A DNA stretch of 64,000 nt from a virus (Duplodnaviria > Caudoviricetes): the IMG/VR virus record IMGVR_UViG_3300031998_000008, positions 143,930-207,929 of that record. The stretch is one strand, 5' to 3'. The notes beneath the pieces are model-generated. The model was not told the origin of the DNA. It searched no databases and saw only the letters and a program-made list of their open reading frames with translations. Positions 1,609 through 37,132 of this stretch are shown here, in pieces. The position numbers and the translations under genes were made by a program. Within the stretch, counting starts at the first letter, position 1; each line of letters opens with the position of its first letter.

Positions 1609-1638
1609 AAAAAGCCCGATTTAGTTCGGGCTTTTTTT
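1609..1638. terminator. Bidirectional intrinsic terminator
   Basis: AAAAAGCCCGA-TTTAGT-TCGGGCTTTTTT between convergent genes. Confidence 0.8.
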
Positions 1639-5140: not shown

Positions 5141-5346
5141 GCAAATTTTCGGTTTTATCTTTAAGTATAAATAGTTTAAGGGCATAAAAAAAGCAGACCG
5201 AAGTCTGCTAAAAACTATTCGAGTAAACGGCGCTCGGTAACATACTTTAATATGCGCTCACTATACTAAATGTTTTGCTATAATTATCATTTACTTTGTA
5301 AAAAGATATTTTTTTTGTATAATTTATATGAAAATTTTTAAAAAGA

Positions 5347-25887: not shown

Positions 25888-25959
25888 GGGTTTGTAGCTC
25901 AAAGGCAGAGCAACGGTCTGTTAAACCGTAGGTTGAGATTTCGAAATTCTCCATTCCCT
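25888..25959 (+). tRNA. tRNA-Asn(GTT), mismatched acceptor
   Basis: ACGGT-CTGTTAA-ACCGT. Confidence 0.65.
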
Positions 25960-25984
25960 CAATGTTAAACTAAAAATTAAAAAA

Positions 25985-26218
25985 ATGGGAGTGAGAAACA
26001 GAACATATCGGTCACACTACAAAATAGGAATAAATGGTGAATACGAAGAAAAGAAATCGTATGAGACCGAAAAAGAGGCCCTGAAAGTGGCAAGATTCTT
26101 GAATACAAGAGAAAACATAATCCACAAGATGGTAGCCTACAAATGCGTAAAATGCGGCAAGTGGCACGTTGGAAGCAACAACACCGTGCTTGATGAAGAG
26201 GAAAGAAAAAAAATATAA
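25985..26218 (+). CDS. Small zinc-ribbon-like protein
   Basis: K.SY.T..EA...AYKC.KCGKWHVG. Confidence 0.7.
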   Translation: MGVRNRTYRSHYKIGINGEYEEKKSYETEKEALKVARFLNTRENIIHKMVAYKCVKCGKWHVGSNNTVLDEEERKKI

Positions 26219-26289
26219 AAAAAAGTTGCAGAAAAATTTGTGATATTCAAAAATAGTTTGTATATTCACAATGTTCTTTGAAAACAAAT

Positions 26290-26400
26290 GGGCTGTAAAT
26301 CCGAACAAAATAGCGGAGTGACCTGCTGGTCGAAGTATTATGCATAAGAAGACCATACGGTGGCAATGCGGCCACTGGGGTTCGAGTCCCCAACAGTCCA
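26290..26400 (+). ncRNA. tRNA-like element with G3:U70/A73 acceptor
   Basis: GGGCTGT/ACAGTCC-A, TGGGG-TTCGAGT-CCCCA; no normal anticodon arm. Confidence 0.55.
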
Positions 26401-26405
26401 CATAT

Positions 26406-26476
26406 AGGTGGTTGGTGTAACGGTAACATAGCGGTCTCCAAAACCGTTGTTGAGGGTTCGAATCCTTCACCACCTG
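26406..26476 (+). tRNA. tRNA-Trp(CCA)
   Basis: GCGGT-CTCCAAA-ACCGT; full cloverleaf. Confidence 0.92.
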
Positions 26477-26594
26477 CAAATACTGAAGAGTGCTCTTCGG
26501 TACAGAGTGGATAGTTTAAAAGAAGCACTTGGAAAAACATATGGAGTCCAATCCGTAAGATACAAGTTCGAGTCTTGTTCTGCTTGCAAATAAC

Positions 26595-26675
26595 GCTCGT
26601 TAGGTCGTATAGGGGATTAGTACACTATAAGCGGGACGCTAAGAAACACTGGTTCGAAACCAGTCCAAACGAGCA
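26595..26675 (+). ncRNA. tRNA-like element
   Basis: GCTCGTT/AACGAGC with T arm ACTGG-TTCGAAA-CCAGT; no anticodon arm. Confidence 0.45.
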
Positions 26676-26680
26676 AAAAT

Positions 26681-26755
26681 GCACCTGTGGTCGAGTGGTC
26701 AAAGGCAATGGTCTGCAAAACCATACAATCGTTGGTTCGAATCCAACCAGGTGCT
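26681..26755 (+). tRNA. tRNA-Cys(GCA)
   Basis: ATGGT-CTGCAAA-ACCAT. Confidence 0.92.
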
Positions 26756-26764
26756 CAAGAATAT

Positions 26765-26864
26765 GGAGGATGTGATGTAATGGTAGGCATAGCAGGGTAG
26801 ACCTGTCGGGTGTAATAAATTGGCCATGAATAAGCCCGTGAAAGTTCGAATCTTTCCGCCTCCG
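26765..26864 (+). ncRNA. tRNA-like element (Ser/Tyr-type body, 5-nt anticodon loop)
   Basis: GGAGG/CCTCC-G, GCAGG-GTAGA-CCTGT, T arm. Confidence 0.45.
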
Positions 26865-26887
26865 CAAAGAAGTTCTTTGAAAAACAT

Positions 26888-27023
26888 TGAAGCGTGGTGA
26901 AATGGTAGACACGGCGGTAGTAAACAAAACGCTTACAGTGTATGTAAGTTAACAGCAGTTGGTATTACGTTTCAGGTAGAACCGCTGCCAGTGGCGTTGG
27001 AGGTTCGAATCCTTCCGCTTCAA
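26888..27023 (+). tRNA. tRNA-Leu-type gene with ACAGCA-module insert in the anticodon arm (anticodon uncertain, CAG or TAG)
   Basis: Leu D arm GTGAAATGGTAGACAC, long variable arm, GCGGT/ACCGC stem around a ~60 nt insert with GCTTACA/TGTAAGT-TAACAGCAG. Confidence 0.7.
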
Positions 27024-27075
27024 CAAAAAAGTTTGGCACGATTTTTGATATAGTGCTTATGTTCTTTGAAATTAT

Positions 27076-27148
27076 CGGGATGTAGTTCAGTTGGTAGAAC
27101 GCATGGTTTGGGACCACGAGGTCGCAGGTTCGAGTCCTGTCATCCCGA
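27076..27148 (+). tRNA. tRNA-Pro(TGG)
   Basis: CATGG-TTTGGGA-CCACG. Confidence 0.9.
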
Positions 27149-27262
27149 CAGAAAGATGAAGGCAACTGCATGGACATAATCAATGCCACTATGTTGAGCA
27201 CTAGAAAATATGGCAGATAAAGGTCCTTGGACAAACTCAACTACGGTTAAACTTCATCAAAT

Positions 27263-27432
27263 GGTGCTCTGGCAGATATGGTATATGCACCGGACTGAAT
27301 ACAGAATAAACTGTAAATTAAACTTCGTGTTGGCGAAGAGGAAAACGCAAGACGCTAATCGTCTAACTCATCGGTTCAAATCCGATACACGGAGCAAATC
27401 CGGCTAAGGTGGTTCGAGTCCACTGGGCACCA
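27263..27432 (+). tRNA. tRNA-Phe(GAA) with 97-nt anticodon-loop insert containing a nested tRNA-like gene
   Basis: CCGGA-CTGAA[27300-27396]AA-TCCGG; acceptor GGTGCTC/GGGCACC-A. Confidence 0.75.
27324..27394 (+). ncRNA. Nested tRNA-like element (5-nt anticodon loop CTAAT)
   Basis: TTCGTGT/ACACGGA, GCG/CGC D stem, AGACG/CGTCT, ATCGG-TTCAAAT-CCGAT. Confidence 0.7.
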
Positions 27433-27483
27433 CAGAAAATTTGATAATAAAATAGAAATTAAAATAAAAAAATAGGTAATACG

Positions 27484-27519
27484 ATGACACGATTTAAGAA
27501 ACACATAAAACGACTGTAA
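27484..27519 (+). promoter_or_regulatory. Mini-ORF MTRFKKHIKRL followed by a 10-bp hairpin
   Basis: A-rich leader then ATG; hairpin AATGATGGTA/TACCATCATT at 27522-27554. Confidence 0.4.
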
Positions 27520-27566
27520 GTAATGATGGTACACCTTGTAGTTTTACCATCATTCGGGAAGACTAT

Positions 27567-27639
27567 GGGGATGTAGCAGACACGGTTGTTGCGTGTGACT
27601 GAAAATCACAAGAAGTTGGGTCAGCACCAACCATCCCCA
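27567..27639 (+). tRNA. tRNA-Phe(GAA), atypical T loop
   Basis: TGTGA-CTGAAAA-TCACA; T loop GTCAGCA. Confidence 0.75.
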
Positions 27640-27645
27640 CAATAG

Positions 27646-27719
27646 GGGCTCATAGCATAATTGGTAGTTGCACCTGACTTTTAATCAGGGGGTTCTGGGT
27701 TCGAGTCCCAGTGGGCCCA
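27646..27719 (+). tRNA. tRNA-Lys(TTT)
   Basis: CCTGA-CTTTTAA-TCAGG. Confidence 0.92.
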
Positions 27720-27728
27720 CAAGCAAAT

Positions 27729-27804
27729 GCGCTTGTAACTCAGTGGTTTTCAGAGTACTTGACTTTTAATCAAGGAGTCGTGGGTTCGAGTCCCACCAGG
27801 CGCA
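27729..27804 (+). tRNA. tRNA-Lys(TTT)
   Basis: CTTGA-CTTTTAA-TCAAG. Confidence 0.92.
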
Positions 27805-27810
27805 CTAAAT

Positions 27811-27882
27811 GCCCCAATGGTGTAATGGATAGCACTAAAGTCCACGGAACTTTCAGTGAGGGTTCGAATCCTTCTTGGGGTA
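27811..27882 (+). tRNA. tRNA-Arg(ACG), C33
   Basis: AAAGT-CCACGGA-ACTTT. Confidence 0.85.
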
Positions 27883-27894
27883 CTTTTGACAAAC

Positions 27895-27965
27895 GTCCCT
27901 GTAGGTCAACGGTAGACTAGGTGACTCTTAATCATCGGATTTGGGTTCGAATCCCAGCGGGGGCA
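27895..27965 (+). tRNA. tRNA-Lys(CTT)
   Basis: GGTGA-CTCTTAA-TCATC. Confidence 0.9.
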
Positions 27966-28015
27966 CAAAACTTGGCACGGTTTTTGATAATGTGCAAACG
28001 TTCTTTGAAAAACAT

Positions 28016-28087
28016 GGCTCCATAGTTCAAGGGATAGAACGAGTGCCTTCTAAGCACCAAATCTAGGTTCGAGTCCTAGTGGGGCTA
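28016..28087 (+). tRNA. tRNA-Arg(TCT)
   Basis: AGTGC-CTTCTAA-GCACC. Confidence 0.9.
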
Positions 28088-28095
28088 CAAAACAT

Positions 28096-28167
28096 GCTCC
28101 TATAGTTCAAGGGAGAGAATAGAAGTTTCCTAAACTTTTGATTTAGGTTCGAGTCCTAATAGGAGTA
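28096..28167 (+). tRNA. tRNA-Arg(CCT)
   Basis: GAAGT-TTCCTAA-ACTTT. Confidence 0.9.
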
Positions 28168-28188
28168 CAAACTTAAATTAAATAGAAT

Positions 28189-28359
28189 ATGGGACTTACA
28201 TATGGCGAAGAGCCTGAACCTTGGATGAATAGCGATGCCCATAACAGGCATTGTTCACGTAAAAAAATTAAACGTGAGAGACATAAAAAACTCAGAAGAA
28301 TACCTCTTGACAAAGATGTCAGGTCAATGTTAAAAAGGTACTCAGGCTGGGAATGGTAA
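28189..28359 (+). CDS. Small basic hypothetical protein (56 aa)
   Basis: MGLTYGEEPEPW...RYSGWEW read by eye. Confidence 0.5.
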   Translation: MGLTYGEEPEPWMNSDAHNRHCSRKKIKRERHKKLRRIPLDKDVRSMLKRYSGWEW

Positions 28360-28363
28360 ATAT

Positions 28364-28435
28364 GCGGCGTTAGTACAACGGTTAGTATATCAGCTTGCCA
28401 TGCTGAAGATGTCGGTTCGATTCCGATACGCCGCT
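28364..28435 (+). tRNA. tRNA-Gly(GCC)
   Basis: TCAGC-TTGCCAT-GCTGA. Confidence 0.92.
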
Positions 28436-28557
28436 CTAAGGTAACTTTAGATTACCTGAAGGTGATATGTGGCATCCTCAAGTACAAGGGACACACCATA
28501 CTTTAGATGGTTATCGCTTTCCCTAGGGCGATTTTAAAATAGCACAGTAGGGGTGTA

Positions 28558-28628
28558 GGCGATGTAGTCTAACGGTAGAACGGGGCTCTCATAAGGCCCA
28601 TACGGAAGTTCAACTCTTCCCATCGCCA
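28558..28628 (+). tRNA. tRNA-Met/Ile2(CAT)
   Basis: GGGCT-CTCATAA-GGCCC. Confidence 0.85.
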
Positions 28629-28951
28629 CAAAAAAAAATAAAAAAAAAAGATTTGCTTTTTACAAATTCAATTTGTATATTTGCAATATCAAAAGTTCTT
28701 TGAAAGAATATATCAAGCCGCCCAGTCGGTAGTCGCAGATTACGGTTTGCGATAAAAGTGGTACTTGGAAGCTAATCCGCTCAGTCGGTAAAAGGTAAGG
28801 TGAGAGAGGTCATCTTTAAAACGTCAATTCGTAAGCCTGAAAAGTGATACTTAGCGTTTTCTCAAAAGGACAGAGTTCTTTGACATATTGTGAAATCTGA
28901 ATAAATACAACTTCTAAAGGTTGTCTGTAGTGATACACGCAACCTTCTTAC

Positions 28952-29038
28952 GGAGGCGTGGCTGAGTGGTTTAAGGCGGCGGTCTTGAAAACCGTTGGCC
29001 TCGTAAGGGGCCCGCAGGTTCGAATCCTGCCGCCTCCG
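28952..29038 (+). tRNA. tRNA-Ser(TGA)
   Basis: GCGGT-CTTGAAA-ACCGT, long variable arm. Confidence 0.93.
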
Positions 29039-29105
29039 CAAAAAAAATCTATAACGAGAATACGACATCCTGTAGTAGAGCACTTAGTATTTAAGTTATA
29101 GTAAT

Positions 29106-29233
29106 GCTGGAATCGTCTAATGGATTAGGACACGTAGCAAACAAAATGATTTCAGTCGGAAATGAAATTTAACAGCAGAATTTAGCAATGAAATTCCAAT
29201 TCCGAAATGGGGGTTCGAATCCCTCTTCCAGCT
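29106..29233 (+). tRNA. tRNA-Gly(TCC) with 55-nt ACAGCA-module insert (29135-29189)
   Basis: Removing the insert gives CGGAA-ATTCCAA-TTCCG; acceptor GCTGGAA/TTCCAGC-T. Confidence 0.8.
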
Positions 29234-29235
29234 CT

Positions 29236-29361
29236 TGCAAGTTGGTGTAGTGGCAGCACACGTAGCGACTAATTAGATTTCAGACATGGAATTAGACAGC
29301 AATATTTAAAATGCGATGAAACCATAATTCCGTGACAGAGGTTCGATTCCTCTACTTGCAA
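29236..29361 (+). tRNA. tRNA-Met/Ile2(CAT) with 55-nt ACAGCA-module insert (29263-29317)
   Basis: Removing the insert gives CGGAA-ACCATAA-TTCCG. Confidence 0.78.
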
Positions 29362-29373
29362 CTATTTAAGATT

Positions 29374-29495
29374 TGGGATGTGGTGTAACGGTAGCACACG
29401 TAGCACTTTATGATTTCAGACACGGAATTTTACAGCAATTATTTTAGCGATGAATTTGGGTTTCCGTGGTTTTGGTTCGACTCCAGACGTCCCGA
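29374..29495 (+). tRNA. tRNA-Pro(TGG) with 51-nt ACAGCA-module insert (29401-29451)
   Basis: Removing the insert gives CGGAA-TTTGGGT-TTCCG. Confidence 0.8.
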
Positions 29496-29517
29496 CATGT
29501 TTTTCAGGTTAAGGTAA

Positions 29518-30029
29518 TGAAATCCCAAGTGGGGCCCAATATATAACAGTCCTTGCTATATGGCGTGAGGATAAAGTTGGGAAAATATAGGTAAAAAATG
29601 CATTCTTACGCCCTAATGGTTGATATATTGTGGTATCAATGGTGTGTTTTTATGTGTGTGACTACGCAAATCACACAGATTTCAATCTAATGAAATACCA
29701 AGTGGGTCCTGATATAGCATATTCACAAAAAATGGTTTGTGAAGAAGTCAGGAAAATAGTGGTGAAGATGATTATTCAGTTAATCCTTAACGTTGGCATA
29801 TCGTGGAGCCAACTGTTCGTCTTTGTGTGCGTGACTACGCAAGTCGCACATATTTCGTCATAATGAAACCCCAAGTGGGACCCAATATACAATAGCCTTT
29901 GCTATATGGCGTAAAGGTAAAGTTGGGGTAATATAGGTAAAAATGCTTGGTTGCGCCCTAATGGTTGATATATCGTGGTATCAACAGTGTGTTTTTATGT
30001 GTGTGACTCCGCAAATCACACAGGTTTCA
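29518..30029 (+). ncRNA. Three tandem copies of a ~167-nt structured RNA (29518-29684, 29691-29857, 29864-30029)
   Basis: 173-nt period; closing stems TGAAATC/GATTTCA, TGAAATA/TATTTCG, TGAAACC/GGTTTCA; conserved CCAAGTGGG and GTGACT(A/C)CGCAA. Confidence 0.8.
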
Positions 30030-30116
30030 TTTTTTTTTGGTACACGTTAAAATGTTTTTTTTTATTCGCCTTTACTAATTTTTAAATTTCATTATATTTA
30101 TATAAAAATATTTATA

Positions 30117-30686
30117 ATGAAAAAGAATTTTAGAACAAAAGAAGAATATATTGAGGCTGCAAAGATGGCTCATAGTGTTGCTGAAATGTGCAGATTACTT
30201 GGTAGAAATCCATGTGGCGCTGGATATTATATTATGAAAAAGAAAATCAAAGAATATGATATAGATATAAGTCATTTTCTTGGGCAAGGATGGAATAAGG
30301 GTTTAAAGATGAACCCTAATGAGGGAAAAATTAAAAAATTAGAAGAAATATTAGTAGAAAATTCCACATATGCTAATTGTAATTGTTTAAAAAAAAGGTT
30401 ATTAAAAGAAGGTGTTAAAGAATATAGGTGTGAGTGTTGTGGGTTGACTGAGTGGAACGGTAAAGAAATTCCTTTAGAAATACATCACATAAATGGTGTT
30501 AGAAATGATAACAGGATTGAAAATCTTCAATTATTATGCCCAAATTGCCATGCTCAAACAGATAATTATTGTTCTAAAAATATGAAGAATGGCGGAGTGG
30601 TGGAATTGGTAGACACGACTGTCCCAAAAGCAGTTGCCGAGAGGCGTGTGGGTCCGACTCCCACCTCCGCTACAGAACTTAAATAA
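30117..30686 (+). CDS. HNH homing endonuclease
   Basis: CECCG..EWNG..LEIHHING..NDNRIENLQLLCPNCH. Confidence 0.9.
   Translation: MKKNFRTKEEYIEAAKMAHSVAEMCRLLGRNPCGAGYYIMKKKIKEYDIDISHFLGQGWNKGLKMNPNEGKIKKLEEILVENSTYANCNCLKKRLLKEGVKEYRCECCGLTEWNGKEIPLEIHHINGVRNDNRIENLQLLCPNCHAQTDNYCSKNMKNGGVVELVDTTVPKAVAERRVGPTPTSATELK
30591..30672 (+). tRNA. tRNA-Leu(CAA), C33, T loop TCCGA; lies inside the HNH ORF 3' end
   Basis: ACTGT-CCCAAAA-GCAGT; Leu D and variable arms. Confidence 0.85.
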
Positions 30687-30704
30687 TAATTAAAAATTAA
30701 CAAA

Positions 30705-31340
30705 ATGAAGAAAGTATTTATTTTATTGATGGCAATTTCTTTGATGTTTTCATTCAATTCTTGCGATTGGTTTAACAAGAACAAGGATAATGAGAAAAAA
30801 GAAATTATCGTGGAAAACGTAGTTAAAGCAGACAGAGACTACATGACAGAAAATTATGGTAATACCTACGTATGGTATGAAACACAAATTTCTTTGAATG
30901 ACTATCTTGATGAAGAATGCGATGGCTCATTCTCAGAGATTGTAGATGTGTTCCAAGTTATCACTACAACTGACAGTGTAACATTTGATACCAAAGTAAT
31001 TAAGATGTACCATGTTGCTGATTCTTCATACATTGAAGAAATTGAAGGTTTCTGGGTTGAAGACATGAATATGAACGATGAAATCATTTCAGTCACTTAC
31101 AAACAAGCATTCCAACTTATTAATGAAGTAAACTTCCCAAAACCACATTCAAAGAATTGTGTTTTGAGAAAAGAAGTTGGCCCAATTGAAGCTAATCCTC
31201 AGTATATCTTTGGCAACATTGAATCACAATTGTATGTTGATGCATTGACAGGTGATGTAACTGATGAAAGCCCAAGTTTCTGTGACGAAGTTATTGAAAA
31301 CGACAGCATCGAAGATGTAAACACTCAATTTGGTGAGTAG
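30705..31340 (+). CDS. Putative lipoprotein
   Basis: MKK + hydrophobic stretch + FNSC lipobox; acidic mature part. Confidence 0.75.
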   Translation: MKKVFILLMAISLMFSFNSCDWFNKNKDNEKKEIIVENVVKADRDYMTENYGNTYVWYETQISLNDYLDEECDGSFSEIVDVFQVITTTDSVTFDTKVIKMYHVADSSYIEEIEGFWVEDMNMNDEIISVTYKQAFQLINEVNFPKPHSKNCVLRKEVGPIEANPQYIFGNIESQLYVDALTGDVTDESPSFCDEVIENDSIEDVNTQFGE

Positions 31341-31372
31341 CCGTAATTAAATAAAAAAAGATATAAAAATTA

Positions 31373-31439
31373 GAAAACCTAACAGCAACTTTTAGTAATA
31401 ATCAGGACTTTCATTCCCGACAATAAACTAATGGTTTTC
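31373..31439 (+). ncRNA. ACAGCA-stem RNA displaying a Glu(TTC) anticodon arm
   Basis: GAAAACC-TAACAGCAA ... CAGGA-CTTTCAT-TCCCG ... GGTTTTC. Confidence 0.7.
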
Positions 31440-31458
31440 GTTTTTTAGAACCCATATA

Positions 31459-31529
31459 AGTAATCCTACAGCAACATTTCAACAAAACCTTTGATTGCAA
31501 TTCAAAACCATGTTAACAAACGGATTACT
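31459..31529 (+). ncRNA. ACAGCA-stem RNA displaying a Cys(GCA) anticodon arm
   Basis: AGTAATCC-TACAGCAA ... TTTGA-TTGCAAT-TCAAA ... GGATTACT. Confidence 0.75.
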
Positions 31530-31535
31530 GTAAAT

Positions 31536-31607
31536 GCCTCCTTAGTATAACGGTTATTATATCGGCTTTGTAACCCGAAGATGGCAGTCCGATTCTGCCA
31601 GGGGGCT
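31536..31607 (+). tRNA. tRNA-Thr(TGT), T loop TCCGA
   Basis: TCGGC-TTTGTAA-CCCGA. Confidence 0.82.
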
Positions 31608-31729
31608 CAAAACATTCGAGGGATTGAGGCTTGGTTTCCTATTCTGACCTTTTGACGAATTGTGTTGGAATACGAATAAGGAGCAAGAGGCTTGCATGCA
31701 CCTGGCTTGCTGTGTAGAGTGTTTTTAAT

Positions 31730-31813
31730 GGGAGCGTAACCGGTAATTGGTAGCCGCACGGACTGTAAATCCGTTCCCTTTTGGGACTGGTGGTTCGAGT
31801 CCACCCGCTCCCA
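31730..31813 (+). tRNA. tRNA-Tyr(GTA)
   Basis: ACGGA-CTGTAAA-TCCGT. Confidence 0.92.
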
Positions 31814-31905
31814 CAACAAGCACAAGTCTTTAGGCCCCCACACACATGGCAGCATAAGACTATATAAGTGGGAATACAAGCAAGAATTCTAAAGTGTTTG
31901 TTAAT

Positions 31906-31976
31906 GCGTTGTTAGTACAACGGCAGTATATTGGCTTCCCAAGCCGAAGATGTCAGTTCGATTCTGATACAGCGCT
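31906..31976 (+). tRNA. tRNA-Gly(CCC)
   Basis: TTGGC-TTCCCAA-GCCGA. Confidence 0.9.
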
Positions 31977-31984
31977 CATGTTTT

Positions 31985-32066
31985 CGGCTTGTGGTGGAAC
32001 TGGTAGACACGCATGTCTTAGGAACATGTGCCGAAAGGCGTGTGGGTTCGACTCCCACCTTGCCGA
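31985..32066 (+). tRNA. tRNA-Leu(TAG)
   Basis: CATGT-CTTAGGA-ACATG; two T-T mismatches in acceptor. Confidence 0.85.
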
Positions 32067-32192
32067 CTGAAAATATATCAACGAAGCTTTGACTAATGAA
32101 GCCATGGATTTTACTGTGAGAAGTCCTATTGTGGACCGTTGATTTTTTAGATTATACTTTTTAGTTGATTATACTTTTTAGTTGAAAATATA

Positions 32193-32283
32193 AGGAAACT
32201 TGCAGCAAATTTAATTAGGTTCAATAAATTTAACTTCCAATTAGATTTTAGATGGTTCGAGTCCATTACAAACAAGGTTTCCT
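32193..32283 (+). ncRNA. GCAGCA-stem RNA with Gly(TCC) anticodon arm and T arm
   Basis: AGGAAACTT-GCAGCAA ... TTTAA-CTTCCAA-TTAGA ... GATGG-TTCGAGT-CCATT ... AGGTTTCCT. Confidence 0.75.
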
Positions 32284-32289
32284 GAGTTT

Positions 32290-32363
32290 GGGAGAGTAGC
32301 GTAGCTGGTTAGCGCAACGGACTGTTAATCCGTGGGTCGTGGGTTCGATTCCCACCTCTCCCG
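32290..32363 (+). tRNA. tRNA-Asn(GTT)
   Basis: ACGGA-CTGTTAA-TCCGT. Confidence 0.92.
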
Positions 32364-32368
32364 CACAA

Positions 32369-32511
32369 AGTAAGCTTGCAGCAATAATTCAGTTTATTTT
32401 CGCAGATACCGAAGAGATGTCGGTTCGATTCCGGCCCCCCATACAAATTTAACTTTCTTATCATATGGGGGTAGTTTAATGGTAGAATATTACAAACAAC
32501 AAAGGCTTACT
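32369..32511 (+). ncRNA. Circularly permuted tRNA mimic (GAT loop) on a GCAGCA stem
   Basis: Order: stem, anticodon arm, T arm, CCCCCAT, linker, ATGGGGG, D arm, stem (AGTAAGCT/GGCTTACT). Confidence 0.8.
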
Positions 32512-32527
32512 GTCAATACAAAGCAAA

Positions 32528-32620
32528 AGAAATCTTACAGCAAATATCAACTTGATTAGTTCGATTCTAATATTAGCCGCCATAAACAGGCTGATTGCAA
32601 AGGTGCAGTTAATGATTTCT
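32528..32620 (+). ncRNA. Permuted tRNA mimic (T arm, closed acceptor, D-like arm; no anticodon) on an ACAGCA stem
   Basis: AGAAATC/GATTTCT; ATTAG-TTCGATT-CTAAT; ATTAGCC-GCCA..GGCTGAT; TGCA/TGCA. Confidence 0.75.
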
Positions 32621-32635
32621 GAATGCTTTTTTTAT

Positions 32636-32709
32636 AGGGGTATGGTTGAATTGGTTACAAGTACCGGCCTGTCACGCCGGTGGTGCGGGTTCGAGTCCCG
32701 TTATCCCTG
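32636..32709 (+). tRNA. tRNA-Asp(GTC)
   Basis: CCGGC-CTGTCAC-GCCGG. Confidence 0.92.
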
Positions 32710-32719
32710 CAATAGATAA

Positions 32720-32849
32720 AGGAATTCAACAGCAACTTTTAATTTCGTTTGACTGTAAATCAAAAGGTTATTGGTTCGAATCCAGTTGTTGCATTAGAGA
32801 AATCGAAGGCGACATAGCTCAATTGGTAGAGTAAGAAAAAGTGATTCCT
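32720..32849 (+). ncRNA. Circularly permuted tRNA-Tyr(GTA) mimic on an ACAGCA stem
   Basis: AGGAATT/GATTCCT; TTTGA-CTGTAAA-TCAAA; T arm; TGTTGC..GCGACA; TAGCTCAATTGGTAGAGT. Confidence 0.82.
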
Positions 32850-32866
32850 GTGCATCTATTTTTTAT

Positions 32867-32940
32867 GGGCCTGTGGTTGAATGGTTTACAATGCCGCCCT
32901 GTCACGGCGTGTGGTGCGGGTTCGAATCCCGTCAGGCCCG
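32867..32940 (+). tRNA. tRNA-Asp(GTC)
   Basis: CGCC-CTGTCAC-GGCG. Confidence 0.9.
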
Positions 32941-32951
32941 CATAGATTGAA

Positions 32952-33106
32952 AGAAATTTAACAGCAAGAGACTTTATGGTAAACACATTTCTCTGCAAAA
33001 GAAAGATTGTTGGTTCGAGTCCAACTGTAGCATTGAAGACGGAGCCCTCATTTAGCGAGGTGCGAGTTTTTGGCTGCATAGTGAAATTGGAAAAAGAATG
33101 ATTTCT
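32952..33106 (+). ncRNA. Circularly permuted tRNA-Cys(GCA) mimic on an ACAGCA stem (break in the D loop)
   Basis: AGAAATT/GATTTCT; TGGTAAACAC; TTTCT-CTGCAAA-AGAAA; T arm; TGTAGC..GCTGCA-TAGTG. Confidence 0.8.
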
Positions 33107-33234
33107 GTAAATCTATAACATAGGAAACAAAGGACACACGTACCTTAAACAAGTACGAAAAGTTAGTGCAAGCCGAATAAAGTCGCCAAGCGTCTCAGGT
33201 CGGTAGCATGATAGTGAAATGTAAATTTCTTAAT

Positions 33235-33307
33235 GGGGAGTTCATTTAGCGGTTTAGGATGCAGGTTCGACAGACCTGTCACTATGGTTCGATTCCATAA
33301 CACCCCA
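33235..33307 (+). tRNA. tRNA-Val(GAC), C33
   Basis: CAGGT-TCGACAG-ACCTG. Confidence 0.7.
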
Positions 33308-33310
33308 CAA

Positions 33311-33661
33311 TCGGATGTTGTTGATATTCAAAGAAAAGTCCGTAAGACGAGGGTTCGACTCCCTCCGGGTCCACCATATTGGGTGCGCCATGTTGAGTAC
33401 CAACCATACTAGTTATACGGTTCTTATGATTCATGGTACAATACCAAGTAATTTGAAAAACTTGGTTCGGGTTTAAAATTGGGGTTCAACTCCCTGGCAT
33501 CCAACAACTTTCAAACATGGGCCCGCTTGGATTTGATTGCGAATGAATACAATGGAAGGAGATATTCGAGAAGCCAATAAATGGCAATGAAAATTATGCA
33601 TATGCAGTTGCAGCCTAAGCTAGGTTAGCAAATGCAGGTTGGCAGCGAACCAAATCGCTGC
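33311..33661 (+). ncRNA. ssrA: Two-piece (circularly permuted) tmRNA
   Basis: Acceptor piece ends T arm-CGGGTCC-ACCA at 33376; coding piece starts GGGCCCG..GGATTTGA at 33519 (G3:U70); tag GNENYAYAVAA-stop at 33583-33618. Confidence 0.88.
33380..33504 (+). ncRNA. tRNA-like element in the tmRNA intervening segment
   Basis: TGGGTGC/GCATCCA-A, TGGGG-TTCAACT-CCCTG, ACCAAGT/ACTTGGT hairpin. Confidence 0.55.
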
Positions 33662-33665
33662 AAAT

Positions 33666-33738
33666 GGCGGGTTCGTATAATAGGTTAGTACGCCACCCTC
33701 TCAAGGTGGAAATAGAGGTTCGAACCCACTACTCGCTA
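33666..33738 (+). tRNA. tRNA-Glu(CTC)
   Basis: CCACC-CTCTCAA-GGTGG. Confidence 0.82.
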
Positions 33739-33748
33739 CAAAATACAT

Positions 33749-33820
33749 CGTGCCATCGAATAATGGTTAGTTCGCTGCCCTTTCACGGCAGTAATACGGG
33801 TTCGAGTCCCGTTGGCACGA
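33749..33820 (+). tRNA. tRNA-Glu(TTC)
   Basis: CTGCC-CTTTCAC-GGCAG. Confidence 0.92.
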
Positions 33821-33894
33821 CTCTCGCCGAGTTAGTTTCTAATCCGGAGCGCTTAACGTACACACGTTAGTAAGTAGGAAACAAGGCGAGTTTT

Positions 33895-33969
33895 CGGCTA
33901 GTGGTGTAATTGGTTAGCACGTCACCCTGATAAGGTGAAAGTTTGGTGGTTCGAGTCCACCCTAGCCGA
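33895..33969 (+). tRNA. tRNA-Ile(GAT)
   Basis: TCACC-CTGATAA-GGTGA. Confidence 0.92.
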
Positions 33970-34167
33970 CAAAATATGCAAAAATTTGTGAAATAATTTA
34001 TTTTTTTGTATATTTATAAAACAAGAAAGTAGTATTCCTGTCAAGGGCGAAACAATTGATGGGTTAGAGCCATACCGTTAGAAACACGGTCATAATGTTA
34101 GGGTACAAGTCGGGTAAAACTGACACCAGTCGGAATGACAAGTTAAATTATGGTTCACTTTCTAAAT

Positions 34168-34242
34168 GGGGCGTTAGCTCAGTCTGGCTAGAGCGGTAGC
34201 TTTGCAAGCTTCAGGTCGTGGGTTCGAATCCCACACGCTCCA
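34168..34242 (+). tRNA. tRNA-Ala(TGC)
   Basis: GGGGCGT/ACGCTCC (G3:U70), loop TTTGCAA. Confidence 0.9.
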
Positions 34243-34608
34243 CAAAACATATTCAGGTATAGAAGACGCAAATTCTAAGAGACTGCTCTGTGTTTTGGAC
34301 GATATATGTGTACCAAACCAATGTTCAAGTTGCGTATTGAACTGAGGGCATGTATAATCGAAAAAAAGTGTCTATGGTGTAAGTGGTGAGCACACCCAAT
34401 GGAGGGAGGTACGGTTCGAGTCCGTGGATTACTTCAATTTTTTTCTTATTATTTAAAAGGATGAAGTTGGTAGCGCCACAACGTAATGTAACAAGTCCCT
34501 GAAATGGTCATTTCAAACTGTGTTCCTTATCGTAGTTAAGGGAAAGTCTTTTACGGTTTCTATAATGCGAAAGCCAAAATGTATCAAAGGAAGCAAACCG
34601 TTTTATTT

Positions 34609-34735
34609 GGAGGTATAGTTTAGTGGTAGAATGACGTAAAATGAAAATAGCATTTTGGTCATTTAAAAATGTTAACAGCATATGAGTTCAATGCCTTTCC
34701 CGCCGTTGATGTAGGTTCGATTCCTGCTGCCTCCG
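34609..34735 (+). tRNA. tRNA (TTC, Glu) with 56-nt ACAGCA-module insert (34637-34692)
   Basis: Removing the insert gives ACGGC-CTTTCCC-GCCGT. Confidence 0.75.
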
Positions 34736-34889
34736 CTATGAGATACCAATAGGTTTACTTAATCATATGTCAGAAGTACAATGACGTTAGAGTATGGGAT
34801 TGCCGGAAGCTAACGGTGTGATACATAACTTCGCACAATTGGTAACAATTCATGTTAGTTGCAAATGACATGATGCTCATTTTTTTTAT

Positions 34890-35021
34890 TGGCCAGTAGC
34901 TCAGTTGGCAGAGCAACGGAATGAAAAGAAAACGCATTTTGGCCTAAAGATGTTAACAGCAATGAAAAATTTTCGACTGTTAATCCGTGGGCCGCAGGTT
35001 CGAGTCCTGCCTGACCAGCCA
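34890..35021 (+). tRNA. tRNA-Asn(GTT) with 56-nt ACAGCA-module insert (34920-34975)
   Basis: Removing the insert gives ACGGA-CTGTTAA-TCCGT; encoded GCCA end. Confidence 0.82.
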
Positions 35022-35131
35022 ATATGTCTTGTGTTGGTGCGTAACCATCGGGCACTAAATGTTGAAACAAACAGGATTAAGTTCCTCGAAAGCCATTAAT
35101 CAGTTCAACTCTGATGGGACATATTTTTTAT

Positions 35132-35207
35132 GCATGTATGAAGCAGATTGGATGTGCTACCAGCGTGATAAGGCTGGGCTATGTTGGTTCGAATCCAACT
35201 GCATGCG
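35132..35207 (+). tRNA. Atypical tRNA-Ile(GAT)-like, 8-nt anticodon loop
   Basis: CCAGC-GTGATAAG-GCTGG; GCATGTA/TGCATGC. Confidence 0.55.
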
Positions 35208-35248
35208 CAAATTACCTGAACACATAGGGTGATTTATCTGTACAGATT

Positions 35249-35402
35249 GGGTGTGTAGACTGAATGGGAAAATTGGTATCAAAAGTACATTCGGATATGA
35301 CTGAAATGCAGATAGGTCATATTGACGGGATGCAACTTGAGAAGATTTGAAGATGCGCCCGGTAAGCTCCGGGAGATACGGGTTCGAATCCCGTCACACT
35401 TA
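35249..35402 (+). ncRNA. tRNA-like element with a large D-arm insertion
   Basis: GGGTGTG/CACACTT, CCCGG-TAAGCT-CCGGG, ACGGG-TTCGAAT-CCCGT. Confidence 0.5.
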
Positions 35403-35407
35403 CAATA

Positions 35408-35474
35408 GGAAAACATACAGCAACTTTAATTCAGTTACAATCTTTTAAATTGTGGGACTAAAATTTCGTTTTCC
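35408..35474 (+). ncRNA. ACAGCA-stem RNA displaying a Lys(TTT) anticodon arm
   Basis: GGAAAAC-ATACAGCAA ... ACAAT-CTTTTAA-ATTGT ... GTTTTCC. Confidence 0.78.
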
Positions 35475-35561
35475 GTTTAATATATGGTTGGCAAAGATGA
35501 GTTAGCTAGCAAACATTACCCCAAAAGTTATTCATACTTAGGTTATAACGCCAATCATTAT

Positions 35562-35643
35562 GGGGAAGTGGTGGAACTGGTAGACACGTATGCCCAAGGA
35601 GCATATGCCGAAAGGCGTGTGGGTTCGACTCCCACCTTCCCTA
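35562..35643 (+). tRNA. tRNA-Leu(AAG), C33
   Basis: TATGC-CCAAGGA-GCATA; Leu D and variable arms. Confidence 0.85.
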
Positions 35644-35793
35644 CTTAATATGCCCTGTAGTCAAAGTTGTAGAACAACTATTACGTATGTCGTTGTTTCT
35701 GTAATTTCTGGTGATTTATTTGACCGTACTTTGTTAATACATGTTAATACGAAGTATGAAGGTTCGATTCCTTTACTGAGGCGCAAGGAGAAA

Positions 35794-35864
35794 GCCTTGT
35801 TAGTTTAGTGGTAGAATGATACCCTCGTAAAGTATAGACGATGGTTCGATTCCATCACTTGGCT
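35794..35864 (+). tRNA. tRNA-Thr(CGT)
   Basis: ATACC-CTCGTAA-AGTAT. Confidence 0.72.
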
Positions 35865-35896
35865 CAATATTTATTAAAGAACAAAAAAGATTATTT

Positions 35897-36157
35897 ATGA
35901 AAAAGTTATTTTTAACAATTACTATTGTTTTTGCATTGCTTACAAGTTGCATTGCACAAAATGGAGGAGGATTATTCCAAAGGGGTGAAAATCCTGAAAG
36001 TGAAAAAACCCAAGTTATTTATAACAGAGAAGGGGGATTTCCTGGTCTTCCGCCACACGGAGAAGAAGGCGACCAACCTGCACCTGTAGGCGCAGGAACT
36101 GTTTTACTTATTGGCTTTGGTGCTGCTTATGCAATGTACAAGAAAAACAAAAAGTAA
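35897..36157 (+). CDS. Small secreted protein with PID-CTERM-like C-terminal sorting signal
   Basis: Signal peptide; PVGAGTVLLIGFGAAYAMYKKNKK. Confidence 0.7.
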   Translation: MKKLFLTITIVFALLTSCIAQNGGGLFQRGENPESEKTQVIYNREGGFPGLPPHGEEGDQPAPVGAGTVLLIGFGAAYAMYKKNKK

Positions 36158-36455
36158 AGAAAACTCAACGCTGATGAGTATAAATAAGACAGCCGTACAG
36201 CCATCGTGAACGGTAGCAGTACTGGACTAAACTGTTAAAATAAAGGCCCTAAGGGAGAGGTAACGTTACTCCTTAAAACTAGCGAATTTCAAGTAGATTC
36301 ATGGGTTATCGAAAGGCTTTAGAAATGTTAAGTAAAAAGACCTTATGCCAGCGATTGACACTCTACACGGGGAGTGTAGGCCACGAAAAATGTGGTGGTT
36401 GAAAAAGTACCAGGGTTCGACTCCTATATCAATCAAGGAAATCCATTTTTCAGAT

Positions 36456-36533
36456 GGTGTCTATAGTGTTAGTGGTCGAGCACGCAAGTTTGTGGCACTT
36501 GTAGCCTCAGTTCGAATCTGAGTAGACACCCCA
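36456..36533 (+). tRNA. tRNA-His(GTG) with G-1
   Basis: CAAGT-TTGTGGC-ACTTG; C73-CCA encoded. Confidence 0.92.
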
Positions 36534-36534
36534 A

Positions 36535-36838
36535 TAGCAAGTACGGACCACATAGTAGTGTTCAGGGTAAGCCGTAAAGGTATCAGCTGTAGGGTTACGG
36601 TGTAGTCAGGGACCCATGTCCCCCAGCCTGATGAAGGAGTGTTGGTAATTTGCGAATCTCGTAAATTAAAGGTGAACTGCAACCGATTCCGTGAGGGGCC
36701 ATAAGATGACAAGCAACAGGAGCGTAAAAGTAGAGAAAAATGTGCAATCTGCATCAAGGTCTAGGTTAGCCCTCTCCCCATTGCACACTTACCACATAGT
36801 GGTTGTTCTCGCCTTGTCTCGTGAATTTACCTTGCTAT
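36535..36838 (+). ncRNA. Unidentified ~300-nt structured RNA
   Basis: GC-rich spacer closed by ATAGCAAG/CTTGCTAT, with internal hairpins. Confidence 0.45.
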
Positions 36839-36843
36839 TTTAT

Positions 36844-36929
36844 GGAGATGTGGCCGAGTGGTTTAAGGCGGCTCTCTGCTAAGGAGTTGGGCCCATAAAG
36901 CCCCGCAGGTTCGAATCCTGCCATCTCCG
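36844..36929 (+). tRNA. tRNA-Ser(GCT)
   Basis: GCTCT-CTGCTAA-GGAGT, long variable arm. Confidence 0.92.
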
Positions 36930-37059
36930 CAGAACGTGGCCAAAGCACGTTTTTAACACAAAAATTAAAGTGTTGGAGTATAATAAAGTGAAAATGTGGT
37001 CTGCAAGCCCATCGGTAAGCCAACGTGCTTTGAAAGTTCTTTGCCTTTGCAGGGGCAAT

Positions 37060-37132
37060 TTGTTTATGGTGTAACAGGGAGCATGCCTGTCGTGAAGACA
37101 GGAGGAGTCGGGTTCGAGACCCACTGAGCAGC
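37060..37132 (+). ncRNA. Atypical tRNA-like element
   Basis: CCTGT-CGTGAAG-ACAGG, GGGTTCGAGACCC. Confidence 0.45.

What the first reader, a model, noticed from the sequence alone, without database searches (positions are those of the whole stretch)
29518..30029. Triplicated 167-nt structured RNA with compensatory changes
Seen: three copies at a 173-nt period. The closing stem covaries (TGAAATC/GATTTCA, TGAAATA/TATTTCG, TGAAACC/GGTTTCA), as do CCCAA/TTGGG versus CCTGA/TCAGG and TTGATA/TATCAA versus TTGGC/GCCAA. Loops YGTGG and CT(A/C)CG could kiss, and GGCGT/RCGCC could form a pseudoknot in copies 1 and 3. Copy 2 has diverged in sequence yet keeps length and pairing. I do not recognise the family. 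Inference: a protein-sponge, ribozyme or antitoxin-like RNA.
Basis: partly seen in the sequence, partly recalled or inferred. Interest (0 to 1): 0.75.

Follow-up and report, generated by a model that had tools for sequence, protein, structure and literature searches.

The report
Structured RNA genes among phage tRNAs
Three adjacent genes of about 170 bases, in the tRNA gene cluster of an uncultured giant phage whose closest sampled relative comes from cattle rumen, encode a folded non-coding RNA of a family absent from Rfam; the fold is real and conserved, the layout recalls the still unexplained small RNAs of phage T4's tRNA cluster, and the function is unknown.

Summary
Three head-to-tail units (29518-29685, 29691-29858, 29864-30029, + strand) share one five-helix fold. 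I found 15 more units in eight other metagenomic phage contigs. Across all 18 units, 37 of 49 base pairs show changes on both sides that keep the pair.

It is not a plain triplication. There are two old paralogue types: A (copy 2) and B (copies 1 and 3). Relatives carry A+B, B alone, or one distant copy. Two otherwise collinear relatives have an empty site. The RNA is therefore an accessory, exchangeable cassette.

It always lies inside a tRNA array. It starts 1-8 nt after a tRNA in every contig where the upstream junction is assembled (about 20 nt in this window). In the close clade it ends 12-25 nt before tRNA-Leu(CAA).

It matches no Rfam 15 family. It was not found in 41 related phage records or in 150 further genomes of the MAG's order (Bacteroidales by its record title). 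No conserved neighbouring protein gene was seen.

The closest known analogue in layout is T4 rnaD-rnaC (tRNA, two small stable RNAs, homing endonuclease gene). No homology to these was detected.

Function is unknown. The best guess is a stable trans-acting RNA cut out of the tRNA precursor. Expression could not be tested. The scan had flagged this same stretch before, and similar kinds of RNA in other phages, but not this family on other DNA.

The parts
29518..29685 (+). Unit 1 (type B, extra copy). It is 86% identical to unit 3 and branches at the base of the B clade. About 20 nt separate it from the upstream tRNA.
   Evidence: (196.8 bits)
29691..29858 (+). Unit 2 (type A). It is identical over 169 aligned columns to the first unit of L257 and 98% identical to that of L238.
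29864..30029 (+). Unit 3 (type B, the unit that always lies last). It is 98% identical to the second unit of L238.
   Evidence: (201.8 bits)
29864..29870 (+). Unit 3, P1 5' strand. It pairs with 30023-30029. The closing helix has a 6-bp core that starts with an invariant G preceded by U or C.
   Evidence: helix 1; 6 of 9 pairs change on both sides
29871..29879 (+). Unit 3, P2: a tiny hairpin or invariant element. It tolerates a 1-nt insertion in its loop in some relatives.
29881..29927 (+). Unit 3, P3 (29881-29886 with 29922-29927) enclosing hairpin P3a (29895-29902 with 29911-29918). The UGG in the P3a loop is invariant.
   Evidence: (helices 3 and 4: 14 of 14 pairs change on both sides)
29928..29938 (+). 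Unit 3, conserved single-stranded junction between P3 and P4.
29939..29996 (+). Unit 3, P4 (29939-29946 with 29989-29996) enclosing a conserved linker (29947-29963) and hairpin P4a (29964-29971 with 29978-29985). A possible 3-4-bp pseudoknot joins 29908-29911 to 29954-29957.
   Evidence: helices 5 and 7; pseudoknot read, weakly supported
29998..30022 (+). Unit 3, P5 hairpin (29998-30003 with 30017-30022) with a 13-nt loop, 10 positions of which are invariant in all 18 units. P5 abuts the P1 3' strand with no nucleotide between them.
   Evidence: (helix 8, 100% paired)
30030..30039 (+). Run of T after the last unit. It is present after the last unit in the close clade and absent from the distant homologue in L260.
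29374..29495 (+). Upstream neighbour: tRNA(UGG) carrying a mini-insert of about 52 nt in its anticodon stem. In relatives the first unit begins 1-3 nt after this tRNA or a sister tRNA.
28652..28683 (+). Bacteroidota-type promoter-like site (TTTG ... TAnnTTTG) after tRNA-Met. It is conserved at the same place in L257, L244 and L248 and is the probable start of the transcript that holds the units.
   Evidence: the assignment as a promoter is inference
30117..30686 (+). HNH homing-endonuclease ORF inserted between unit 3 and tRNA-Leu(CAA). It is absent at this site in all relatives. The 3' end of the ORF as called runs into the tRNA gene.
30591..30673 (+). tRNA-Leu(CAA), the conserved downstream neighbour of the cassette in the close clade.

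Best explanation
The three units are genes for a small, compactly folded, non-coding RNA family carried as an accessory cassette in the tRNA operon of a clade of uncultured giant myovirus-like phages. One close relative comes from cattle rumen, and the host is probably in Bacteroidota.

Proposed mechanism:
1. The units are transcribed with the tRNAs from a promoter about 850 nt upstream.
2. They are cut out of the polycistronic precursor by the nucleases that mature the flanking tRNAs. Each unit is closed by a 6-8-bp terminal helix that stacks directly on a hairpin, as an acceptor stem stacks on a T arm.
3. They persist as stable RNAs of about 170 nt.
4. Their invariant loops and junctions bind a partner encoded elsewhere: a host or phage protein, or an RNA of the tRNA or translation apparatus.

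Shown:
- the fold and its selection;
- the strand and the non-coding nature;
- two paralogue types;
- the position flush with tRNAs;
- presence/absence and exchange among relatives;
- the absence of a linked protein gene.

Inferred: co-transcription, excision by tRNA-processing enzymes, stability, action in trans, and the kind of partner.
For: - Fold under selection: 37 of 49 pairs change on both sides in 18 units, and 94.7% of cells are paired against at most 48% in slid controls.
- Strand: conserved G-U pairs fix the tRNA strand.
- Non-coding: no open frame is conserved.
- Conserved surface: 41 columns are invariant, 24 of them unpaired and concentrated in the loops of P2, P3a, P4a and P5.
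- Position: units start 1-8 nt after a tRNA in L238, L241, L243, L251 and L260, and end 12-25 nt before tRNA-Leu(CAA) in the close clade.
- tRNA-like stacking: P5 abuts P1 with no spacer in all units, and position +1 is G after U or C.
- Promoter: a promoter-like site is conserved upstream.
- Accessory nature: G041 and G042 have the same tRNA-Ser / mini-insert tRNA / tRNA-Leu(CAA) block with 8-11 nt in place of the cassette. Copy number is 1, 2 or 3.
- Exchange: the window's unit 2 is identical to that of L257, while the B units of the two phages are only 83% alike.
- Older origin: L260 holds a distant homologue after tRNA-Met. All its helices are rewritten and its loops are kept.
- Precedent: T4 has tRNA-Arg, then rnaD 1 nt later, then rnaC 6 nt later, beside the segB homing endonuclease gene. 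Their roles are unknown (PMC3014915) and both are expressed (PMC9697503).
Against: - There is no expression or end-mapping data.
- The RNA has no T-loop or other detectable tRNA signature. The Rfam tRNA model does not score it.
- Excision by RNase P or RNase Z is argued from geometry only.
- Single-sequence folding energies are only modestly better than shuffles (z = -1.8 to -2.7).
- No partner is identified. No antisense target was found in the phage genome.
- The run of T after the last unit could instead mean that the cassette ends a transcript.
Confidence: 0.55

Rival explanations
1. Cargo of the same clamp-helix RNA system that fills the rest of this array. These are modules in which a purine-rich/pyrimidine-rich 6-8-bp helix followed by ACAGCAA either sits inside tRNA anticodon stems or joins the ends of RNAs that enclose tRNA parts. 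Under this reading P1 of the units is that clamp, and one machinery acts on both: a splicing or circularising enzyme, or a Ro60-like protein.
For: - The P1 sequences of the units fall within the range of the clamp helices at 31373-33110, one of which has the same sequence as the P1 of unit 1.
- Both kinds of helix follow an A-rich lead.
- Earlier notes of this scan describe the clamp modules and, in other phages, link similar 'handles' to Ro60-like genes. These notes are unchecked leads.
- A relative's contig encodes a weak TROVE match.
Against: - The units lack the ACAGCAA motif that defines those modules.
- Clamp modules and mini-inserts occur in G012, G041 and G042 without the units, so neither needs the other.
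- No TROVE or RtcB gene was found in this record or in five relatives that are 93-100% complete.
- A 6-bp AU-rich helix in a 33% G+C genome can look alike by chance.
- L260 uses a different P1.
Confidence: 0.12
2. A cis-acting element of the tRNA operon: a processing platform, an insulator or terminator, or a ligand- or tRNA-sensing leader that controls read-through into tRNA-Leu(CAA) and the genes behind it.
For: - The cassette lies immediately upstream of tRNA-Leu(CAA) in the close clade.
- A run of T follows the last unit.
- Tandem, related but distinct domains recall tandem riboswitch aptamers.
Against: - tRNA-Leu(CAA) is expressed from the same context without the cassette in G041 and G042.
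- In the window a homing-endonuclease gene separates the cassette from tRNA-Leu.
- L260 has the RNA after tRNA-Met, with no T run and no tRNA-Leu.
- The T run does not directly follow a simple hairpin.
- There is no alternative-pairing expression platform that covaries.
Confidence: 0.1
3. A new self-cleaving ribozyme that cuts at unit borders. It would release the upstream tRNA 3' end and unit-length RNAs, as HDV-like 'theta' ribozymes and hammerheads are reported to do next to phage tRNAs (from my own knowledge of that literature).
For: - The units form a head-to-tail array flush with a tRNA 3' end.
- The core is complex, with a possible pseudoknot and many invariant unpaired nucleotides.
- The unit borders are constant.
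Against: - No known ribozyme family matches, even at E up to 10.
- The well-supported nested topology, with the 5' end paired to the 3' end, is not that of HDV-like ribozymes.
- One ribozyme would be enough to trim a tRNA, yet two types are kept.
- New ribozyme classes are rare.
Confidence: 0.08
4. A type III antitoxin-like or pseudo-antitoxin repeat RNA that neutralises a host abortive-infection endoribonuclease.
For: - The repeats are in tandem on a phage.
- Accessory, patchy distribution is typical of counter-defence genes.
Against: - Units are four to five times longer than known antitoxin repeats.
- They are heterogeneous: two types only 55-69% identical.
- They occur once or twice rather than as multi-copy arrays.
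- No toxin gene lies beside them.
- There is no PADLOC-type neighbour to test.
Confidence: 0.03
5. Decayed tRNA genes or DNA-level repeats with no RNA function.
For: - The location is inside a tRNA array.
- The order of helices is cloverleaf-like.
- An 8-nt string is shared with the 5' part of the neighbouring tRNA-Leu in L241 and L243.
Against: - There is pervasive compensatory change in five helices across lineages and paralogues.
- Loops are invariant over units that are only 38-48% identical.
- No tRNA model matches.
- The shared string is not kept in L238.
Confidence: 0.03

Closest known systems
Phage T4 small stable RNAs rnaD and rnaC (species 2 and species 1 RNAs) of the tRNA gene cluster
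   Same: - Two different small structured RNAs lie in tandem on the tRNA strand.
- The first starts 1 nt after a tRNA and the second 6 nt after the first.
- A homing-endonuclease gene sits in the same cluster.
- Function is unknown despite known expression (PMC3014915, PMC9697503).
- Each RNA is closed by pairing of its ends in the minimum-energy fold of rnaC.
   Different: - No sequence or structure homology: model R2 gives 3 bits on rnaC and nothing on rnaD.
- T4 rnaC keeps a canonical T arm. The units have none.
- The units are longer (about 170 nt against 119 and 139 nt).
- The units are paralogues of each other.
- The host lineages differ.
GOLLD (RF01998) and ROOL (RF03087) RNAs
   Same: - They are phage- or prophage-encoded.
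- They often lie near tRNA islands.
- They are elaborately folded, with pseudoknots.
- No protein partner is known and the function is unknown (PMC12286853).
   Different: - They are 3-5 times larger.
- Neither model matches.
- They form homo-oligomeric cages, and nothing here tests oligomerisation.
- The units come as two types and in variable copy number.
Bacterial and phage Y RNAs (YrlA, RF02553) with Ro60/Rsr
   Same: - The ends pair into a closing helix.
- The modular body is placed among tRNA-like RNAs.
- The putative host group has Ro60: the Bacteroides thetaiotaomicron control rings for TROVE.
   Different: - There is no Rfam match.
- There is no tRNA-like T or D arm.
- No TROVE gene was found in this phage record or in five relatives that are 93-100% complete.
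Type III antitoxin RNAs (ToxI, CptI, TenpI) and phage pseudo-ToxI
   Same: Tandem structured RNA repeats that a phage can carry.
   Different: - Unit length is about 170 nt against 34-45 nt.
- There are two divergent types.
- Copy number is 1-3.
- No adjacent endoribonuclease gene is present.

Membership tests
Any Rfam 15 family | Covariance-model match at or near the gathering score | tested here: not met
   There is no match on the units at gathering thresholds over the whole window, at E up to 10 on 29000-30600, or at E up to 5 on three homologous contigs.
T4 rnaC/rnaD-type small stable RNAs of phage tRNA clusters | Encoded within a tRNA cluster on the tRNA strand, flush with a tRNA and in tandem with short spacers | tested here: met
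   for this family; for T4.
T4 rnaC/rnaD-type small stable RNAs of phage tRNA clusters | Homology to rnaC or rnaD in sequence and structure | tested here: not met
   With filters off, R2 gives 3.2 bits (E 6.4) over rnaC and nothing over rnaD. rnaC has a T arm that the units lack.
T4 rnaC/rnaD-type small stable RNAs of phage tRNA clusters | Accumulates as a discrete stable RNA processed from the tRNA precursor | not testable with these tools
tRNA / tRNA-like | Cloverleaf with T loop and D loop, recognised by tRNA models | tested here: not met
   ARAGORN and the Rfam tRNA model do not call the units. Only the order of helices and the P5-on-P1 stacking resemble a tRNA.
Known self-cleaving ribozymes (hammerhead, HDV-like, twister, twister-sister, pistol, hatchet, glmS) | Match to the family model | tested here: not met
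Known self-cleaving ribozymes (hammerhead, HDV-like, twister, twister-sister, pistol, hatchet, glmS) | Site-specific self-cleavage | not testable with these tools
   This needs an in vitro transcription assay.
Type III toxin-antitoxin antitoxin RNA | Short (about 34-45 nt) near-identical tandem repeats next to a toxin endoribonuclease gene | tested here: not met
   Units are 166-179 nt. The two types are 55-69% identical. Neighbours in the short contigs L241 and L243 are tRNA genes only.
Y RNA / YrlA with Ro60 | Ro60 (TROVE) gene in the same genome, and a tRNA-like module in the RNA | tested here: not met
   No TROVE match in G000 (56% complete) or in five relatives that are 93-100% complete. 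There is no YrlA model match. A host-encoded Ro60 is not excluded.
Clamp-helix + ACAGCAA modules of this array | Purine-rich strand of the clamp followed by (A/G)CAGCA(A) | tested here: not met
   The motif is absent from all units. Only the clamp-like P1 is shared.
GOLLD / ROOL | Model match; length over 500 nt | tested here: not met
   Units are about 170 nt each.

The most novel reading that the evidence does not exclude
The RNA is a tRNA-end mimic or trap. Its terminal helix stacked on P5 imitates an acceptor/T-arm minihelix. Its four conserved loops that carry UGG-type motifs (complementary to CCA ends) capture a host factor that recognises tRNA, or tRNA 3' ends themselves. This would make it an exchangeable RNA counter-defence cassette against tRNA-targeting host immunity. 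Alternatively, the A and B units assemble into an RNA-only multimer, as ROOL and GOLLD do.
Probability: 0.1. Interest if true: 0.8.

Novelty: new member of a known kind. Interest (0 to 1): 0.5.

Why it matters
Small stable RNAs in phage tRNA clusters have been known since the 1970s (T4 species 1 and 2), and none has a function.

This family adds a case with unusually clean comparative evidence:
- a five-helix fold with 37 covarying pairs;
- two paralogue types;
- a distant homologue with every helix rewritten;
- natural presence/absence and cassette exchange between otherwise collinear phages.

That combination gives ready-made controls for experiments: isogenic-like genomes with 0, 1, 2 or 3 units. 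It also gives a well-defined target for structure probing, pull-downs and processing assays.

If such cassettes turn out to be counter-defence or translation-modulating RNAs, this would explain part of why large phages carry tRNA arrays.

Tried and rejected
- **Strict motif scans of IMG/VR**. These gave only chance hits, which were checked by reading them and with the model. The window's own record is left out of that collection.
- **GenBank phages.** No DNA match and no match to the neighbouring 211-aa protein.
- **Related phage records.** Models R1, R2 and R3 on 27-41 related IMG/VR records (major capsid protein 50-82% identical), including eight estimated complete: nothing. The weak hits were inspected and rejected. 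The arrays of G012 and G002 were searched with filters off: nothing.
- **Host-order genomes.** 150 further genomes of the MAG's order (Bacteroidales by its record title): not found in those searched.
- **Antisense targets** of the conserved loops in the phage genome: none.
- **Pairing between A and B units** that covaries: none.
- **Splicing cofactor idea.** The idea that the units are the catalytic or guide RNA for the mini-inserts in tRNAs is rejected, because the mini-inserts occur without the units.
- **Linked protein.** The 211-aa ORF after tRNA-Leu is also present in G042, which lacks the units, and is absent from L241 and L243.
- **RNase P RNA, 6S, SRP, retron ncRNA and omega-RNA readings.** These were considered from architecture and dropped: no model match, no conserved signature blocks, and no reverse transcriptase or TnpB nearby.

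Full report
**Where the window lies.** The window is the last 64 kb of a 207,929-bp IMG/VR virus record that CheckV rates 56% complete. The record encodes a tail sheath, portal, large terminase and major head protein. It is therefore a fragment of a giant myovirus-like phage.

Bases 25888-37132 hold an array of 34 tRNA genes plus a permuted tmRNA, all on the + strand. The flagged stretch lies inside this array. On one side is a tRNA(UGG) with a short insert in its anticodon stem (29374-29495). On the other is an HNH endonuclease ORF (30117-30686), followed by tRNA-Leu(CAA) at 30591-30673.

**The observation.** Three units start at 29518, 29691 and 29864, a period of 173 nt.
- Units 1 and 3 are 86% identical. 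Unit 2 is 63-68% identical to them.
- RNAalifold on the three copies alone gives 49 pairs, 14 of them with compensatory change.
- By pair counting, 97% of cells are paired, 15 pairs change on both sides, and slid controls give 37-50% and at most 5 such pairs.
- Single-sequence folds are only modestly better than shuffles (z = -1.8 to -2.7). The evidence is therefore comparative, not thermodynamic.
- All frames carry stops in most units.
- No further copy exists in the record.

**Known families.** Nothing in Rfam 15 matches:
- at gathering thresholds on the window;
- at E up to 10 on 29000-30600;
- at E up to 5 on three homologous contigs.

**Relatives.** Strict motif scans of IMG/VR gave only chance hits. 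A three-block pattern on the metagenome collection found true homologues in L238, L241 and L243, each with two tandem units. The genome collection gave the same phage as L238 on a 24.7-kb contig binned into an uncultured Bacteroidales MAG.

I then used the 211-aa ORF that follows tRNA-Leu(CAA) as a handle and fetched further contigs. These added:
- units in L251/L252, L253, L254, L255, L256 and L257/L258 (L254 holds only a partial match and is not in the alignment);
- one distant homologue in L260.

L257 comes from run ERR2027923 of PRJEB21624, a cattle rumen project (PMC6785717 found).

The alignment of 18 units (A7) gives:

| Measure | Result |
|---|---|
| Cells paired | 94.7% |
| Pairs changed on both sides | 37 of 49 |
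| Shuffles reaching the observed values | 0 of 500 |
| Cells paired in slid controls | at most 48% |
| Pairs changed on both sides in slid controls | at most 17 |

A7 was fitted to the model, which favours its structure. An independent MAFFT alignment of nine units (A4) shows the same covarying helix sequences by eye, and RNAalifold on the nine-unit model-fitted alignment (A5) gives the same helices.

L260 is only 38-48% identical to the others. It nevertheless keeps every helix with different sequence, including a different 8-bp P1, and it keeps the loop motifs.

**Anatomy.** A unit has these parts:
- a 6-8-bp closing helix P1;
- a tiny invariant hairpin-like element P2;
- P3 enclosing hairpin P3a;
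- a conserved 11-nt junction;
- P4 enclosing a conserved linker and hairpin P4a;
- hairpin P5, whose 13-nt loop is invariant at 10 positions.

P5 abuts the 3' strand of P1 with no spacer. Forty-one columns are invariant and 24 of them are unpaired.

Two tertiary contacts have been proposed.
- A contact between the 3' side of the P3a loop and the linker inside P4 has two invariant G-C pairs. A third pair reads C-G, U-G, U-A or U-U, depending on lineage. A fourth holds in about half of the units. I read this. It is plausible but not proven.
A second register works for some of the mismatched units, so the kiss remains undecided.

**Two types, variable number, exchange.** Units in the first position (type A) and in the last position (type B) separate on a tree. 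Each label needs one change, in 96% of bootstrap trees.

| Arrangement | Where |
|---|---|
| A then B | L238, L241, L243, L255, L256, L257 |
| B alone | L251 |
| B, A, B | the window; its unit 1 branches at the base of the B clade |
| a single distant unit | L260 |

The window's A unit is identical to that of L257, yet their B units are only 83% alike. The window's last unit is 98% identical to that of L238. Cassettes have therefore been exchanged between phages.

Two relatives (G041, G042) share the same mini-insert tRNA and the same tRNA-Ser / tRNA(UGG) / tRNA-Leu(CAA) order. They have only 8-11 nt where the cassette would be.

Models R1-R3 find nothing in 41 related IMG/VR records. Eight of these are rated at least 90% complete. 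R3 also finds nothing in 150 further genomes of the MAG's order. The RNA is thus accessory and confined to a sub-clade plus at least one distant lineage.

**Context and transcription.** In relatives the first unit begins 1-3 nt after the upstream tRNA's discriminator region (7-8 nt in L260). The last unit is followed by a T-rich run and, 12-25 nt later, by tRNA-Leu(CAA). In the window, unit 1 is set off by about 20 nt, and the HNH gene has been inserted before tRNA-Leu.

A site of the form TTTG ... TAnnTTTG lies after tRNA-Met at 28652-28683. It recurs at the same place in L257, L244 and L248. Similar sites dot the array of G012. From my own knowledge this is the promoter form of Bacteroidota. 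Together with the MAG binning, it points weakly to a Bacteroidales host.

No protein gene is consistently adjacent. In L241 and L243 the neighbours are tRNAs only. The 211-aa ORF also occurs without the cassette.

**Relation to the other odd RNAs of the array.** Earlier notes of this scan describe two things: mini-inserts in tRNA anticodon stems, and modules in which a clamp helix followed by ACAGCAA encloses tRNA parts. I saw both.

The P1 helices of the units resemble those clamps in sequence, but the units lack ACAGCAA. The mini-inserts and clamps occur in G012, G041 and G042 without the units. The units are therefore not a required cofactor of that system.

Other notes link such handles to Ro60-like proteins. 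I found no TROVE or RtcB gene in this record or in five relatives that are 93-100% complete. One more distant contig has a weak TROVE hit.

**Closest known.** T4 has tRNA-Arg, then rnaD 1 nt later, then rnaC 6 nt later. The segB homing endonuclease gene sits in the same cluster. This is the same layout as here. The roles of these RNAs are unknown (PMC3014915), and both are expressed late (PMC9697503).

There is no detectable homology, and rnaC has a true T arm. GOLLD and ROOL share the phage and tRNA-island setting and the unknown function (PMC12286853), but they are much larger and do not match.

**Verdict.** The finding is a real, previously uncatalogued structured RNA family. It is a new member of the known but unexplained kind 'small stable RNAs of phage tRNA clusters'.

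The mechanism I favour (confidence 0.55) is this: co-transcription with the tRNAs, excision by tRNA-processing nucleases thanks to the P1-on-P5 minihelix, and action in trans through the invariant loops on a partner encoded elsewhere. Only the fold, the setting and the evolutionary behaviour are shown. Expression, processing and partner are inferred.

The main rivals are cargo of the clamp system (0.12), a cis-acting operon element (0.10) and a new ribozyme (0.08).

Noticed in passing
window 29106-29495; also L229:7120-7245, L249:660-781, L248:1570-1690 (- strand): tRNA genes carry a 51-56-nt insert in the 5' strand of the anticodon stem. The insert holds a conserved hairpin followed by ACAGCAA. 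The same inserts occur in relatives that lack the structured RNA units.
   Followed up: partly
window 31373-33110: A series of RNAs whose 5' and 3' ends pair into a 6-8-bp purine/pyrimidine clamp followed by ACAGCAA. They enclose anticodon arms or permuted tRNA bodies. One clamp (32530-32615) has the same sequence as the P1 of unit 1.
   Followed up: partly
L250:4054-4172 (- strand), T4 rnaD: T4 species 2 RNA (rnaD) carries ACAGCAG followed by AAAC near its 3' end. This is reminiscent of the ACAGCA(A) motif of the clamp modules in this window. It was not examined further.
   Followed up: no
L241:900-1540 and L229:6390-6990: In two relatives tRNA-Ser(UGA) is split by an insert of about 500-540 nt after the anticodon loop, possibly a group I-like intron, though no Rfam match was seen in L241. 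The window's tRNA-Ser (28952-29039) is intact.
   Followed up: no
window 28652-28950: A conserved Bacteroidota-type promoter-like site is followed by a non-coding leader of about 260 nt before tRNA-Ser. The leader holds a repeated 10-nt word and may be another small RNA.
   Followed up: partly
window 30117-30686: The HNH endonuclease ORF as called overlaps tRNA-Leu(CAA). Its last 31 codons match the tRNA-Leu genes of other contigs in tblastn, so the true stop or the gene call is doubtful. The gene is absent at this site in all relatives.
   Followed up: partly
L267:6751-7940: A more distant relative's contig encodes a 577-aa protein with a weak TROVE (Ro60) match, a few kb from the homologue of the 211-aa ORF.
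   Followed up: no
L260:4712-5130 and 5210-5750; L229:7290-7560: Long G+C-rich non-coding stretches lie between tRNA genes in relatives. They look like further structured RNAs.
   Followed up: no
window 33314-33618: A permuted (two-piece) tmRNA lies within the phage tRNA array (Rfam RF04321, 63 bits). The same tag peptide is found in L251, and a slightly different one in L257.
   Followed up: no
window 1638-4148 (- strand): An 836-aa protein combines an inorganic pyrophosphatase-like domain with a cyclic-phosphate-processing receiver domain (cREC_REC). This may bear on RNA end chemistry in this phage.
   Followed up: no
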